This document shows, piece after piece, positions 1 through 1,418 of a stretch of 1,418 nucleotides of DNA. The translations under genes and the position numbers were made by a program. Numbering within the stretch: the stretch's first letter is position 1; every line of letters starts with the position of its first letter. The DNA is from Enterobacteria phage TuIa. Under the pieces are notes generated by a model. It saw only the letters and a list, made by a program, of their open reading frames with translations. It was not told the DNA's origin and made no database searches. Location of the stretch: the sequence record AJ621579.1. One strand, written 5' to 3'.

Positions 1-23
1 GGAAAGGTTGTTGCATAATTTTA

Positions 24-48
24 GGGAGACTTCGGTCTCCCTTTTGTG
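24..48 (+). terminator. Rho-independent terminator: 7-bp GC-rich stem GGGAGAC/GTCTCCC with a TTCG tetraloop, followed by TTTTGTG
   Basis: Read directly: 24-30 GGGAGAC, 31-34 TTCG, 35-41 GTCTCCC (perfect inverted repeat), then T-run 42-45. On the minus strand the hairpin is followed by an A-rich rather than U-rich tract, so it is oriented to stop a + strand transcript from an upstream gene. Confidence 0.7.
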
Positions 49-60
49 CGTTTAGGGCAG

Positions 61-106
61 AAAAAGTTAAAAAAGGTGTTTACTCTCCTGTAGGATGTGT
101 TACTAT
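61..106 (+). promoter_or_regulatory. Sigma70-type early promoter (T4-early-like): A-rich UP-like tract, -35 GTTTAC(T), extended -10 TGtTACTAT
   Basis: A-rich tract 61-76 (aaaaagttaaaaaagg); GTTTAC at 78-83 (hexamer TTTACT 79-84); TG at 98-99 followed by TACTAT 101-106; spacer 16 bp. Predicted transcription start near 113-115. Located immediately after a terminator and about 45 nt before the ORF1 start. Confidence 0.6.
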
Positions 107-140
107 AGACTTGTACCACCTAATCGATAAAACAAACCGG

Positions 141-144
141 AGAA
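141..144 (+). promoter_or_regulatory. Shine-Dalgarno site (GGAG) for ORF1
   Basis: GGAG at 141-144, 4 nt (aata... spacing region aataaa overlaps) before ATG 149-151; A-rich spacer typical of T4 translation initiation regions. Confidence 0.75.
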
Positions 145-148
145 TAAA

Positions 149-514
149 ATGAACTACATCAACTTCGAACGTAAATATGTTTCTAACGGTATCGCTGGTT
201 CTTCTGAAGTTATTTGCTTATGGAAACACGAAAACGGTACAGATTGTGAAATCGAACAGTGCATGACTCCTAATTACGTTTATATGCGATTTGAAAACGG
301 CATCACGGTTTCAATCACGATGGAAGGTTCCAACTTCAAAATTGCATTAGATGACGATTTCCGTCAACGTGATTTAGGTACTCATCCTTGCTGGAACGGT
401 GTTAATCGTAAACTTCTGGTTAAAACTTGGATTCGTCATATCCTGAGTAACCGAGCTAAACCTGAACATCTCGAAGCAATCTTTGATGTAGTTCTTAACG
501 AATTCGATATCTAA
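149..514 (+). CDS. Hypothetical phage early protein, 121 aa, no recognisable motif (ORFan candidate); contains a Cys/His cluster
   Basis: ATG start with GGAG SD, TAA stop at 512-514. I re-translated the whole frame by hand and it matches the ORF track. Codon choice is T4-like (cgt, ggt, aaa, gaa, gtt, tct preferred). Sits directly downstream of the early promoter. Confidence 0.8.
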   Translation: MNYINFERKYVSNGIAGSSEVICLWKHENGTDCEIEQCMTPNYVYMRFENGITVSITMEGSNFKIALDDDFRQRDLGTHPCWNGVNRKLLVKTWIRHILSNRAKPEHLEAIFDVVLNEFDI

Positions 515-520
515 TTTAAC

Positions 521-538
521 TGGGAGCTTCGGCTCCCA
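521..538 (+). promoter_or_regulatory. Intercistronic GC-rich stem-loop with UUCG tetraloop and no U-tract; likely RNA stability/processing or attenuating element rather than a full terminator
   Basis: 522-527 GGGAGC, 528-531 TTCG, 532-537 GCTCCC, with an extra T521/A538 pair. Followed by ACTGAGGAAATT, not a T-run. Near-identical to the hairpin at 24-41. Ends 3 nt before the ORF2 SD. Confidence 0.55.
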
Positions 539-540
539 CT

Positions 541-544
541 GAGG
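541..544 (+). promoter_or_regulatory. Shine-Dalgarno site (GAGG) for ORF2
   Basis: GAGG at 541-544, 5-nt AT-rich spacer (aaatt) before ATG 550-552. Confidence 0.7.
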
Positions 545-549
545 AAATT

Positions 550-1164
550 ATGTTTAAAGTTAATACTTTTTATAAAATGAATTTTAAAAATGGGGATATT
601 ACTCCACGCCTTAAAAACATGTTCTCATATGACCTTATCGAGCCTTTTGAAGTTTTAGAAGTTACTGATGCCGGCACGGTTTGTGAAATTAGAACTTCTG
701 AAGGTAAAATTTATCAGGCAGGTGTTGGTAAATTCAGTAATTGTTTTTCTTTAATATTCTCGACCGATTTAGATGAGCATTTTATTGAATGTCCTAATCC
801 TAAGGACTATGAAGTTCCACATCAAGAAACTAAGAAAAATGGCCCGCACGAATATACGAAGGTTGAAACTCCTCACGGCGTGATGTGGCGTCATAACTCT
901 CCTTTTGGAAGTAAAGGAACATTTGCTCAACCGTCTAAACCGTATGACGATGAAAAATACATCGTCGTCTTTTTATCTGAACAGGGCACTCAAGACCGTG
1001 GATGCCAACGAAGTGGTTTACTAAGTGAACTTGAAGCTCATAACCAAGCACGTGAATTCGTTGAGAAAAATCCTGGTTCTGAAGCTCTAGTCATGAAAGC
1101 AATTACTCAATATATCACTGCTCAACCTGTTGTTCATCCGGTAGAAATTAATTTCGTTAAGTAG
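550..1164 (+). CDS. Hypothetical phage early protein, 204 aa, no recognisable catalytic motif; apparent two-domain layout with a Pro/Lys/Glu-rich central segment
   Basis: ATG 550 with GAGG SD; TAG stop at 1162-1164. No promoter is evident between ORF1 and ORF2, so it is probably co-transcribed with ORF1 from the 61-106 promoter. Central segment about residues 82-135 (PNPKDYEVPHQETKKNGPHEYTKVETPHG...SKPYDDEKY) is compositionally distinct from both flanks. Confidence 0.8.
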   Translation: MFKVNTFYKMNFKNGDITPRLKNMFSYDLIEPFEVLEVTDAGTVCEIRTSEGKIYQAGVGKFSNCFSLIFSTDLDEHFIECPNPKDYEVPHQETKKNGPHEYTKVETPHGVMWRHNSPFGSKGTFAQPSKPYDDEKYIVVFLSEQGTQDRGCQRSGLLSELEAHNQAREFVEKNPGSEALVMKAITQYITAQPVVHPVEINFVK

Positions 1165-1194
1165 TTTACATCCAAGGACGGATTAGAGTATAAT
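1164..1194 (+). promoter_or_regulatory. Sigma70-type early promoter (T4-early-like): -35 GTTTACA, -10 TATAAT, 18-bp spacer
   Basis: GTTTACA at 1164-1170 (TTTACA 1165-1170), perfect TATAAT at 1189-1194, AT-rich tract upstream (1146-1163). The -35 begins at the last base of the ORF2 stop codon. Predicted transcription start near 1201-1202. Confidence 0.65.
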
Positions 1195-1220: not shown

Positions 1221-1418
1221 ATGAAATTTTTAATAGCACAAACAGTCCAATTAAAAGGTGTTGGAATTCCTGGGATGATTTTTAAAGTTCTTCATGAATT
1301 TAAAACCGCCGCTGGAATTATCAATGAAGCGTATGCTGTTCAATGGGTTGATGGGACTTCTGACATACGTATGGGTAAAGAGTTATCTCCTATTAAAGGT
1401 TTAAAATGTCTGAGTTAG
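1221..1418 (+). CDS. Hypothetical small phage early protein, about 65 aa from ATG 1221 (ORF track starts at GTG 1209, giving 69 aa); function unknown
   Basis: Open frame 1209-1418 ending in TAG at 1416-1418, the last bases of the window. ATG 1221 is preceded by a purine-rich GTGGA/GGA (1209-1213) at SD-like spacing. The GTG at 1209 lies only about 7-8 nt downstream of the predicted transcription start with no SD, so ATG 1221 is the likelier start. Has its own dedicated promoter. Confidence 0.6.
   Translation: MKFLIAQTVQLKGVGIPGMIFKVLHEFKTAAGIINEAYAVQWVDGTSDIRMGKELSPIKGLKCLS

What the first reader, a model, noticed from the sequence alone, without database searches (positions are those of the whole stretch)
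550..1164. ORF2: 204-aa early protein with apparent two-domain architecture and no recognisable motif
The N-terminal region (about 1-80) and C-terminal region (about 140-204, ending in a predicted amphipathic stretch LSELEAHNQAREFVEKNPGSEALVMKAITQYI) are separated by a Pro/Lys/Glu/His-rich segment that looks like a flexible linker or interaction loop. I see no nucleotide-binding, nuclease or ADP-ribosyltransferase signature. It is of similar size to the T4 Mod-type ADP-ribosyltransferases, but I cannot find the R / S-T-S / E-x-E triad, so I do not make that call. It is probably co-transcribed with ORF1, suggesting a functional pair.
Basis: inference. Interest (0 to 1): 0.5.

Follow-up and report, generated by a model that had tools for sequence, protein, structure and literature searches.

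The report
GoF-family phage early protein, chimeric
ORF2 is a real, conserved early gene of RB69-like (Mosigvirus) T-even phages: its front half belongs to the recently described GoF/MotB.1/Frd.2 "LSm-like barrel" family, its back half is a rare module that is a separate gene (30.6A) in other T-evens, and its function is still unknown.

Summary
The 204-aa ORF at 550-1164 is real. It is intact in 113 Mosigvirus genomes and under purifying selection (pN/pS 0.13-0.26).

The two-part build is confirmed, but it is recognisable. [quoted passage not shown] Kim et al. 2025 define that family as barrel + flexible linker + variable C-terminal domain.

ORF2 sits in a polymorphic cassette slot after gene 30.7. 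T4 and RB69 carry unrelated gp30.6 there; other T-evens carry other GoF-like genes there.

Co-transcription with 30.7 is likely, but a functional pair is unsupported (30.7 in 994 records, ORF2 in 113). It is not an ADP-ribosyltransferase. Function is unknown; RNA or RNA-factor binding is the leading inference. Interest is modest.

The parts
1..18 (+). 3' end of gene 30.9 (codons GKVVA plus TAA stop)
   Evidence: Matches the C-terminus of the 59-aa gp30.9 homologue (...RFGKVVA) in L043. Position agrees with the annotated 30.9 in L001/L002.
23..49 (+). UUCG-tetraloop hairpin (23-42) plus U-rich tail: intrinsic terminator after 30.9
   Evidence: RNA fold -14.1 kcal/mol, z -3.9. Annotated as a rho-independent terminator at the same place in SA79RD.
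78..106 (+). T4-type early promoter (GTTTAC, 17 nt spacer, TACTAT). In relatives it drives 30.8; here it drives 30.7 and ORF2.
   Evidence: Read from the sequence. Window 1-134 aligns 130/134 with the region upstream of 30.8 in L001. Function is inferred from consensus only.
149..514 (+). Gene 30.7 (ORF1), 121 aa
   Evidence: Pfam PF06919 Phage_T4_Gp30_7, E 1.4e-50. Found in 994 phage records.
521..538 (+). Intercistronic UUCG-tetraloop hairpin without a U-tract, immediately before the SD (GAGG 541-544). Upstream flank of the cassette.
   Evidence: RNA fold -13.3 kcal/mol, z -3.6. Nearly identical spacer before P0008 in L043.
550..1164 (+). ORF2, 204 aa, chimeric GoF-family early protein (phrog_17531)
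550..795 (+). N-terminal module, aa 1-82: GoF/Frd.2/MotB.1-type LSm-like (SH3-topology) beta-barrel domain
   Evidence: hhalign vs GoF orthologues: prob 96.5%, E 7.5e-10, GoF 4-89. Leave-ORF2-out family HMM: 28 bits, HMM positions 2-87 of 90. phrog_622 E 1.5e-5 and phrog_8920 E 4.8e-7; phrog_622 is the home family of T4 GoF and Frd.2. Fold assignment comes from PMC12152347. My own AF2 model of this part is low confidence.
796..834 (+). Linker, aa ~83-95 (CPNPKDYEVPHQE), Pro/Glu/His-rich
   Evidence: pLDDT < 50 for aa 58-91 in model 1 and for aa 87-90 in model 2. Not conserved in relatives. Variable positions 86, 87, 91 and 94 cluster here.
835..933 (+). aa 96-128: beta-meander of the 30.6A-type module (KNGxHxYT...W+HNSPWG)
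   Evidence: Conserved in CkP1_0226, P0003 and P0006. Four strands at 94-97, 100-107, 110-116 and 122-125, pLDDT ~80.
934..1161 (+). aa 129-204: alpha/beta C-unit (strand 136-142, loop, strand 152-154, helix 160-173, NP turn, strand 178-184)
   Evidence: Matches the stand-alone SP18 gp30.6A at 68% identity (H88). hhalign to the CTD of P0008/P0009/P0010/phi92-type proteins: E 3e-5, prob 73%. AF2 pLDDT 78-90.
979..1020 (+). Invariant loop, aa 144-157: E-x-G-T-x-x-R-x-C-x-R-S-x-L. Candidate functional site.
   Evidence: E144, G146, T147, R150, C152, R154, S155 and L157 are invariant across seven sequences only 45-49% identical to ORF2.
1164..1194 (+). T4-type early promoter (GTTTAC, N19, TATAAT) for gene 30.5. 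Downstream flank of the cassette.
   Evidence: 11/12 consensus match. Annotated as a promoter in SA79RD. Homologous sequence follows P0008 in L043.
1221..1418 (+). Gene 30.5, 65 aa
   Evidence: phrog_1690 E 4.9e-28. Annotated as 30.5 in L002.

Best explanation
ORF2 is a genuine early accessory gene of RB69-like T-even phages, and its product is a chimeric member of the GoF/MotB.1/Frd.2 family.

Shown:
- Residues 1-82 are homologous to the N-terminal LSm-like/SH3-topology beta-barrel of that family.
- A short Pro/Glu/His-rich linker (~83-95) follows.
- Residues ~96-204 are a second, independently occurring module. It is the free-standing gene 30.6A in other T-evens. It consists of a beta-meander plus a small alpha/beta unit with an invariant E-x-G-T-x-x-R-x-C-x-R-S loop.
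- The gene occupies a polymorphic cassette slot directly after gene 30.7, bounded by a conserved hairpin + SD upstream and an early promoter downstream. T4 and RB69 hold unrelated gp30.6 in this slot. Other T-evens hold other GoF-like genes there (P0008, phrog_8920 members).

Inferred:
- The gene was assembled and installed by recombination between the conserved regulatory flanks (PeSL-type modular shuffling).
- It is transcribed with 30.7 from the early promoter at 78-106.
- By analogy with GoF(D25Y), which stabilises the gene 41 mRNA post-transcriptionally, it acts as a dispensable, host- or condition-specific modulator. The barrel would dock onto an RNA or an RNA-associated host factor, and the C module's invariant Arg/Cys loop would supply a second binding or effector surface.

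I put ~0.85 on the identity, architecture and evolution part, and ~0.25-0.3 on the RNA-related mechanism.
For: Real gene: 113 intact copies; pN/pS 0.13-0.26.

N-module homology:
- A local HMM hits T4 goF (E 1.1e-5), motB.1 (E 2e-3) and frd.2 (E 0.2) among 1492 ORFs.
- hhalign gives 96.5%, E 7.5e-10 over 85 columns, covering GoF 4-89. With ORF2 + P0008 alone it gives E 8.6e-6.
- An HMM built without the ORF2 lineage scores 28 bits over nearly its full length.
- ORF2 hits phrog_622 (E 1.5e-5), the home family of T4 GoF (4.6e-38) and Frd.2 (3.8e-45).
- The family definition and its functional data come from PMC12152347. frd.2 is a fitness gene in T4 (PMC11879866).

C module:
- tblastn and phmmer hits cover only aa 92/129-190, in SP18 gp30.6A, CkP1_0226 and P0003-6.
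- The loop is invariant.
- The AF2 model has pLDDT 76.
- The C-unit is homologous to the CTDs of slot-mates.

Cassette:
- P0008 is in the same slot.
- Nucleotide identity is 97% over window 538-573. It drops to 60-67%, becomes unalignable, then recovers to 77-86% after the stop.
- T4 and RB69 carry gp30.6 in the slot.
- PeSL literature.
- Promoters and hairpins.
Against: - No experiment exists on this protein.
- The family's wild-type function is unknown. WT GoF and MotB.1 showed no RNA effect in the reporter assay; only the D25Y gain-of-function mutant did.
- ORF2 is acidic (pI 5.7; barrel pI 5.0), which does not favour direct RNA binding.
- My own model of the barrel is poor (pLDDT 40-60, only three strands). 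The fold of the N half therefore rests on homology to proteins whose fold is itself only predicted.
- C-unit homology to the slot-mates' CTDs is moderate (prob 73%).
Confidence: 0.6

Rival explanations
1. It is a protein-binding host-takeover or anti-defence factor. The SH3-like barrel and the C module bind host proteins (for example a protease adaptor, a nucleoid protein or an immune sensor), with no RNA involved. The patchy distribution reflects adaptation to particular hosts.
For: - It lies in a hyperplastic early region where alleles are swapped between close relatives, as is typical of host-adaptation genes (PMC4122927).
- It is an acidic protein.
- WT GoF and MotB.1 showed no RNA effect.
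- The closest PDB neighbours of the family's barrels include FeoA/DtxR-type SH3 domains.
Against: - No match to any PADLOC model or to any characterised protein in the fold searches.
- No partner is known for any family member; the paper's biochemical work, including pull-downs, gave no insight into function.
Confidence: 0.3
2. The C module is an enzyme, or a small-molecule or nucleotide binder, that uses the invariant Cys152 / Arg150 / Arg154 / Thr147 loop. The barrel would target it to a substrate.
For: The loop E-x-G-T-x-x-R-x-C-x-R-S is strictly invariant in sequences that are otherwise 45-49% identical to ORF2. The module persists as an independent gene in several genera.
Against: - No catalytic family or motif is matched.
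- The domain is small (~75-110 aa).
- The loop is only moderately confident in the model (pLDDT 63-78).
- ADP-ribosyltransferase specifically is excluded, by the absence of an R/STS/ExE triad and of the ART fold.
Confidence: 0.08
3. ORF1 (gp30.7) and ORF2 form a dedicated functional pair.
For: In all 113 genomes that carry ORF2, it directly follows 30.7. The two genes are probably co-transcribed, with a 36-nt spacer and no terminator tail.
Against: - 30.7 occurs in 994 records and ORF2 in 113.
- The same slot holds unrelated gp30.6 in T4, RB69 and SP18.
- The free 30.6A module is not adjacent to 30.7.
- CkP1 has family members in this region with no 30.7 among the genes shown there.
Confidence: 0.08
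4. It is a decaying or non-functional fusion ORF with no selected function.
For: One genome (vB_EcoM_G2469) carries a frameshifted copy truncated at 115 aa. Family members are dispensable in the laboratory.
Against: The frame is intact in 113 genomes. pN/pS is 0.13-0.26 overall, and as low as 0.00-0.10 in the barrel for several pairs. The SD and start codon are conserved.
Confidence: 0.03

Closest known systems
T4 GoF (ComC-alpha), Frd.2 and MotB.1: the Tevenvirinae LSm-like fold family (Kim et al. 2025, PMC12152347)
   Same: - The N-terminal ~82-residue domain is homologous.
- Same layout: barrel, flexible linker, then a C-terminal domain that differs between subfamilies.
- All are early genes in dispensable regions of T-even genomes.
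- All are acidic proteins.
   Different: - ORF2 is longer (204 vs 118-141 aa).
- Its C-terminal module is unrelated to the CTDs of GoF, Frd.2 or MotB.1 and occurs elsewhere as a separate gene.
- It has a different genomic location (after 30.7).
- The loop region holding GoF D25 is shorter in ORF2 in the MAFFT alignment.
- There are no functional data.
P0008-type and phrog_8920 / phrog_3710 proteins: slot-mates in other T-evens, CkP1_0225/0224, and phi92_gp003 / Paula_0063 in Justusliebigvirus
   Same: - Same barrel; P0008 is 39-41% identical to ORF2 over the N-terminal module, and the first eight residues, MFKVNTFY, are identical.
- P0008 and L045_156 sit in the same slot after 30.7.
- The C-terminal beta-alpha-beta-beta unit ending in an NP turn is homologous.
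   Different: They are 143-180 aa. They lack the beta-meander (96-128) and the 11-residue invariant Arg/Cys loop insertion.
gp30.6A: SP18 gp30.6A, CkP1_0226 and metagenomic P0003, P0005, P0006
   Same: ORF2 residues 92/129-190 are 44-68% identical to these proteins, including the invariant loop and the NPG-EA turn.
   Different: They are free-standing proteins of 116-152 aa without the barrel (barrel HMM ~0 bits). In SP18 and contig L045 they lie between 30.9 and 30.8, not after 30.7; in CkP1 the gene follows a 30.9-sized ORF with no 30.8 or 30.7 shown.
T4 / RB69 gp30.6 (phrog_2153)
   Same: Occupies the same position, directly downstream of 30.7.
   Different: No sequence similarity; 93-95 aa. 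It is a positional replacement, not a homologue.
Hfq / Sm proteins and FeoA-type SH3 domains
   Same: Reported closest PDB neighbours of the predicted GoF-family barrels.
   Different: No sequence match to Sm, Hfq or FeoA models. Oligomeric rings are not predicted for the family. I could not test ORF2's barrel structurally.

Membership tests
GoF/MotB.1/Frd.2 LSm-like fold family (PMC12152347) | [quoted passage not shown] | tested here: met
   hhalign 96.5%, E 7.5e-10, covering GoF 4-89. HMM built without ORF2: 28 bits, positions 2-87 of 90. phrog_622 (GoF/Frd.2 home family) E 1.5e-5. Direct HMM hits to T4 goF at 1e-5 and motB.1 at 2e-3.
GoF/MotB.1/Frd.2 LSm-like fold family (PMC12152347) | Predicted bent five-stranded antiparallel beta-sheet (LSm-like / SH3 topology) in the NTD | tested here: inconclusive
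   AF2 with 10 sequences gave pLDDT 40-60 and only three strands (33-38, 44-49, 54-56). afdb50 was unavailable.
GoF/MotB.1/Frd.2 LSm-like fold family (PMC12152347) | NTD joined by a flexible linker to a CTD of variable structure | tested here: met
   Low-confidence, non-conserved segment at ~83-95. The CTD is an independently occurring module.
GoF/MotB.1/Frd.2 LSm-like fold family (PMC12152347) | Early gene of Tevenvirinae | tested here: met
   Mosigvirus context. T4-type early promoter consensus upstream. Actual expression timing was not measured.
GoF/MotB.1/Frd.2 LSm-like fold family (PMC12152347) | Effect on RNA stability or gene expression (shown only for GoF D25Y) | not testable with these tools
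   Needs reporter or RNA half-life assays as in PMC12152347.
gp30.6A module (C part of phrog_17531) | Core Y-x-h-V-x-L-x-E-x-G-T-x-x-R-x-C-x-R-S-x-L ... A ... A ... N-P-x-x-E | tested here: met
   All 19 invariant positions of the seven-sequence alignment are present in ORF2: H100, T103, P118, P128, Y137, L142, E144, G146, T147, R150, C152, R154, S155, L157, A163, A167, N174, P175, E178.
gp30.6A module (C part of phrog_17531) | Free-standing small gene located between 30.9 and 30.8 | tested here: not met
   In ORF2 the module is fused behind a barrel and lies after 30.7.
T4 gp30.6 (phrog_2153) | Sequence similarity to gp30.6 | tested here: not met
   BLASTP E > 1. ORF2 does not hit phrog_2153, whereas SP18 gp30.6 hits it at 2.4e-47.
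Mod/Alt-type ADP-ribosyltransferases | ART fold and R / S-T-S / E-x-E catalytic triad | tested here: not met
ClpS-like adaptor fold | ClpS alpha/beta core with N-degron binding pocket | tested here: inconclusive
Hfq / Sm (Pfam LSM, Hfq) | Sm1/Sm2 sequence motifs; ring oligomer | tested here: not met
   No Pfam LSM or Hfq hit at E <= 1. The oligomeric state was not testable.

The most novel reading that the evidence does not exclude
The 30.6A-type C module is a previously undescribed functional domain restricted to a handful of T-even lineages. Its invariant Thr/Arg/Cys/Arg/Ser loop would be a catalytic or ligand- or RNA-binding site. By fusing it to an LSm-like barrel, ORF2 would be a new kind of targeted effector, for example an RNA-directed modifier or an inhibitor of a host immune or RNA-decay factor.
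Probability: 0.1. Interest if true: 0.6.

Novelty: new member of a known kind. Interest (0 to 1): 0.3.

Why it matters
- It gives a family assignment to a gene annotated as hypothetical, or left unannotated, in every one of the 113 phage genomes that carry it.
- It extends the newly recognised GoF/MotB.1/Frd.2 family to a fourth genomic slot and to phi92-like phages. It also shows that the family's variable C-terminal domains can be swapped in from free-standing genes.
- The slot after gene 30.7 is a clean natural example of cassette exchange between conserved regulatory flanks. That makes it a convenient place to test what these abundant, dispensable early proteins do.
- If the barrel family really acts on RNA, ORF2's distinctive C module would offer a handle on specificity.
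- As it stands, the function remains unknown and the finding is of modest interest.

Tried and rejected
Searches that found nothing useful:
- Pfam, NCBIfam and PADLOC on ORF2: no hits.
- PDB sequence search with the single sequence and with the C-module profile: nothing below E 0.2.
- Three searches of the 5.8-billion-protein collection, including two with mixed alignments: only near-identical relatives or the input sequences came back.
- Exhaustive HMMER over 1.84 billion representatives: 7 hits in total. One of them (P0007, a 1117-aa repeat protein) matches only residues 111-135, and I treat it as spurious.
- IMG/VR scans: one near-identical locus for the C module. The N-module alignment was too divergent to seed a scan. 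Single-protein scans gave only close orthologues.
- tblastn with CkP1_0225: only RB49-like hits.
- Rfam: nothing near threshold.
- The supplement of PMC12152347 is not held, so I could not check whether ORF2's lineage is in their tree.
- Literature search for 'gp30.6': nothing relevant.

Structure work that was limited:
- AF2 on full-length ORF2: pLDDT 54, not usable for the barrel.
- afdb50 fold library: unavailable.
- The two BFVD fold searches returned only uncharacterised proteins beyond the 30.6A group.

Ideas rejected:
- ORF2 is a diverged gp30.6: no similarity.
- Residues 92-128 are a second, degenerate barrel, as a MAFFT alignment suggested: the family barrel HMM gives ~0 bits on ORF2 86-204 and on all 30.6A proteins, and hhalign does not extend into that segment.
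- ADP-ribosyltransferase: no motif, family or fold.
- ClpS relationship: too weak to claim.
- The 65-aa members of the ORF2 cluster are gp30.5 sequences, not truncated ORF2.

Full report
**Where the window comes from.** The 1418-nt window is 96-97% identical to RB69-like T-even phages (genus Mosigvirus). The best match is Escherichia phage NRG-P0074 at 97.4%. Read left to right it contains:
- the last five codons of gene 30.9;
- a UUCG-tetraloop terminator (23-42, -14.1 kcal/mol, z -3.9);
- a T4-type early promoter (GTTTAC 78-83, TACTAT 101-106);
- a second UUCG hairpin with no U-tract (521-538, -13.3 kcal/mol, z -3.6);
- a GAGG Shine-Dalgarno, then ORF2 (550-1164);
- another early promoter overlapping the stop codon (GTTTAC 1164-1169, TATAAT 1189-1194);
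- gene 30.5 (1221-1418).

These features rest.

- The 204-codon ORF is at the stated coordinates.
- tblastn finds it full length and intact at 93-99% identity in 113 phage records, nearly all Escherichia or Shigella phages and those examined being Mosigvirus.
- Four orthologues give pN/pS of 0.13-0.26 overall. The barrel is the most constrained part, at 0.00-0.10 in several pairs.
- The N-terminus MFKVNTFY and the SD are conserved even in a distant slot-mate, which supports the annotated start.
Its only strong family is phrog_17531, which is the protein itself.

**The family is tiny.** An exhaustive HMMER pass over 1.84 billion representatives gave seven hits:
- a truncated copy of ORF2 itself (P0002);
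- four proteins of 118-152 aa that match only residues ~92-195 (P0003-P0006);
- one 146-aa protein that matches only residues 1-86 (P0008);
- one spurious repeat protein.

tblastn gives the same picture. Residues 129-190 match the stand-alone 116-aa gp30.6A of Shigella phage SP18 (68% identity), and residues 93-188 match the 152-aa CkP1_0226. This is direct evidence that ORF2 consists of two modules with separate histories.

**The N module belongs to the GoF family.** ORF2 1-100 weakly hits phrog_8920 (4.8e-7), phrog_622 (1.5e-5), phrog_3710 and phrog_5804. I built an HMM from ORF2 1-85 and the N-terminal parts of P0008, CkP1_0225, CkP1_0224 and Paula_0063. I then scanned all ORFs of at least 40 aa in the fetched loci, mostly the early regions of T4. 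It picked out goF (E 1.1e-5, HMM positions 2-86), then motB.1 (2e-3) and frd.2 (0.2).

Kim et al. 2025 (PMC12152347) describe exactly these three T4 early proteins as a Tevenvirinae family. The family has an N-terminal LSm-like (SH3-topology, five-stranded) barrel, a flexible linker and C-terminal domains of varied structure.

I tested the link in three further ways:
- hhalign of the ORF2-type N alignment against six GoF orthologues gave 96.5% probability and E 7.5e-10 over 85 columns. That covers GoF 4-89, against the published NTD of 1-91. ORF2 + P0008 alone gave E 8.6e-6.
- An HMM built from GoF, Frd.2, MotB.1, P0008-10 and phi92-type sequences, with every ORF2-lineage sequence left out, aligns ORF2 2-81 over positions 2-87 of 90 at 28 bits.
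- phrog_622 turns out to be the home family of both T4 GoF (4.6e-38) and Frd.2 (3.8e-45), and MotB.1 touches it at 3e-3.

A 29-sequence alignment is coherent across all subfamilies. I regard sequence-level membership as established.

The fold itself I could not verify.

**The C module is a 30.6A-type domain.** Seven sequences that are 45-49% identical to ORF2 share 19 invariant residues. Among them is the loop E144-x-G146-T147-x-x-R150-x-C152-x-R154-S155-x-L157, followed by A163, A167 and N174-P175 ... E178.

AF2 on residues 87-204 gave mean pLDDT 76:
- four short strands (94-97, 100-107, 110-116, 122-125);
- then strand 136-142, the loop with a short strand at 152-154, helix 160-173, the NP turn and strand 178-184.

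The 'amphipathic stretch' is a helix plus a strand.

Fold searches were uninformative:
- In BFVD only ORF2's orthologue, CkP1_0226 and SP18 gp30.6A are significant. After them comes a tail of uncharacterised 140-190-aa proteins from T4-like and phAPEC8/phi92-like phages.

hhalign indicates that the terminal beta-alpha-beta-beta unit is homologous to the CTD of P0008, CkP1_0225/0224 and Paula_0063 (E 3e-5, prob 73%). In the 30.6A lineage, the Arg/Cys loop is an insertion in that unit (alignment). I considered whether residues 92-128 are a degenerate second barrel and rejected the idea.

**Genomic logic.** T4 has 30.9 - 30.8 - 30.7 - 30.6 - 30.5. RB69, the type Mosigvirus, has gp30.6 after 30.7 and no 30.5. 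Most other Mosigvirus genomes have ORF2 + 30.5.
- P0008 sits in the same slot, 37 nt after 30.7.
- In another metagenomic T-even, the slot holds a 156-aa phrog_8920 member. phrog_8920 is ORF2's best non-self PHROG hit. The 30.6A-type gene P0006 lies upstream, between 30.9 and 30.8, as in SP18.
- Nucleotide identity between the window and the P0008 locus is 87% across 30.7 and 97% across the hairpin, SD and first eight codons (538-573). It falls abruptly to 60-67% in the barrel, is unalignable from ~800 to ~1150, and recovers to 77-86% in the promoter after the stop.

This is the pattern described for PeSL (promoter-early stem-loop) cassettes, which mediate modular shuffling in T4-type hyperplastic regions (PMC2839356, PMC4122927).

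The same mechanism explains a second feature of this window. Gene 30.8 is cleanly missing. The junction lies between two near-repeat promoter/leader cassettes (window 1-134 equals the region upstream of 30.8, which then runs into the 30.7 leader).

**ORF1-ORF2 pairing.** Co-transcription is plausible. However, gp30.7 is found in 994 phage records and ORF2 in 113. The slot holds unrelated genes in T4, RB69 and SP18. The free C module is not next to 30.7. A dedicated pair is not supported.

**What it probably does.** This part is inference.
- Family members are abundant early proteins that are dispensable in the laboratory.
- GoF(D25Y), but not wild-type GoF or MotB.1, stabilises an mRNA post-transcriptionally.
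- frd.2 was the one fitness gene of unknown function in a T4 CRISPRi-ART screen.

The leading hypothesis is therefore a conditional modulator that docks through its barrel onto RNA or an RNA-associated host factor, with the invariant Arg/Cys loop as a second interaction or effector site. I put this at ~0.25-0.3.

A purely protein-binding takeover or anti-defence role is about as likely (~0.3). The acidity (pI 5.7), the SH3-like neighbours and the allele-swapping locus all point that way.

An enzymatic role for the loop (~0.08), a dedicated pair with 30.7 (~0.08) and a non-functional ORF (~0.03) are minor alternatives. ADP-ribosyltransferase is excluded.

**Verdict.** ORF2 is a new, chimeric member of a known but functionally unresolved family, carrying a rare C-terminal module. 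Interest is modest (0.3). The most novel reading still open is that the 30.6A module is a new functional domain (probability ~0.1).

Noticed in passing
window 1-148 (junction near 134/135): Gene 30.8 (~440 bp) is cleanly absent. It is present in the close relatives I inspected, and every listed megablast match was split into two pieces spanning ~1855 bp. The 30.8 early promoter region runs straight into the 30.7 leader. The two junction regions are near-repeats (promoter plus CTGGAGAAYAAAATGA leader), which suggests deletion by recombination between PeSL-like cassettes.
   Followed up: partly
window 946-978, inside ORF2 (codons ~133-143): There is a terminator-like hairpin (8-9 bp stem, -10.6 kcal/mol, z -2.75) followed by CUUUUUAUCU, at the start of the C-unit. 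It is retained in the orthologue L001 (z -4.5) but absent from SP18 gp30.6A. It could be an internal attenuator or simply a coding coincidence.
   Followed up: partly
Escherichia phage vB_EcoM_G2469 (MK327934.1, 130731-131343); protein P0002: In this phage ORF2 is frameshifted. The product is 115 aa, consisting of the barrel and part of the meander and then diverging after residue 111. It is a natural truncation that removes the C-unit.
   Followed up: no
L004 (Citrobacter phage CkP1) 1369-2907: Three tandem genes of related build follow a 30.9-sized ORF: CkP1_0226 (30.6A type), then CkP1_0225 and CkP1_0224 (barrel + C-unit types). No 30.8 or 30.7 appears in the stretch shown.
   Followed up: partly
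L045 2382-2930 (ENA contig NODE_4_length_173228): A 182-aa protein with a RyR domain (PF02026) lies between 30.9 and the 30.6A-type gene in this T-even contig. A 169-aa gene between 30.8 and 30.7 weakly matches the barrel HMM.
   Followed up: no
L047 (RB69) 3394-3675: RB69, the type species of the genus, has T4-type gp30.6 after 30.7 and no 30.5. Most other Mosigvirus genomes have ORF2 + 30.5. The slot is therefore polymorphic within one genus.
   Followed up: yes
protein cluster of P0001: The 90%-identity cluster that holds ORF2 also lists 65-aa proteins. These are gp30.5, the neighbouring gene, so this is a clustering artefact and not truncated ORF2.
   Followed up: yes
P0001, P0027, P0035 and similar entries: Several ORF2 copies are deposited as 'hypothetical protein [Shigella sonnei]' or '[Escherichia coli]'. 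Several of them, including the E. coli-labelled P0027 and P0035, lie on contigs of ~168-170 kb, the size of a T-even genome. These look like lytic-phage sequence inside bacterial assemblies, not prophages.
   Followed up: no
window 1408-1418 (end of 30.5): gp30.5 ends ...KGLKCLS here, but ...KGLKHVE in the orthologues I retrieved. This suggests a small indel or frameshift in the last codons, where 30.5 overlaps the start of 30.4.
   Followed up: no
records AP018813.1 (T2) and NC_054932.1 (teqdroes): gp30.7 homologues are annotated there as 'head vertex protein' and 'putative baseplate hub subunit'. These names are probably mis-annotations, since no other listed record names the gene that way.
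   Followed up: no
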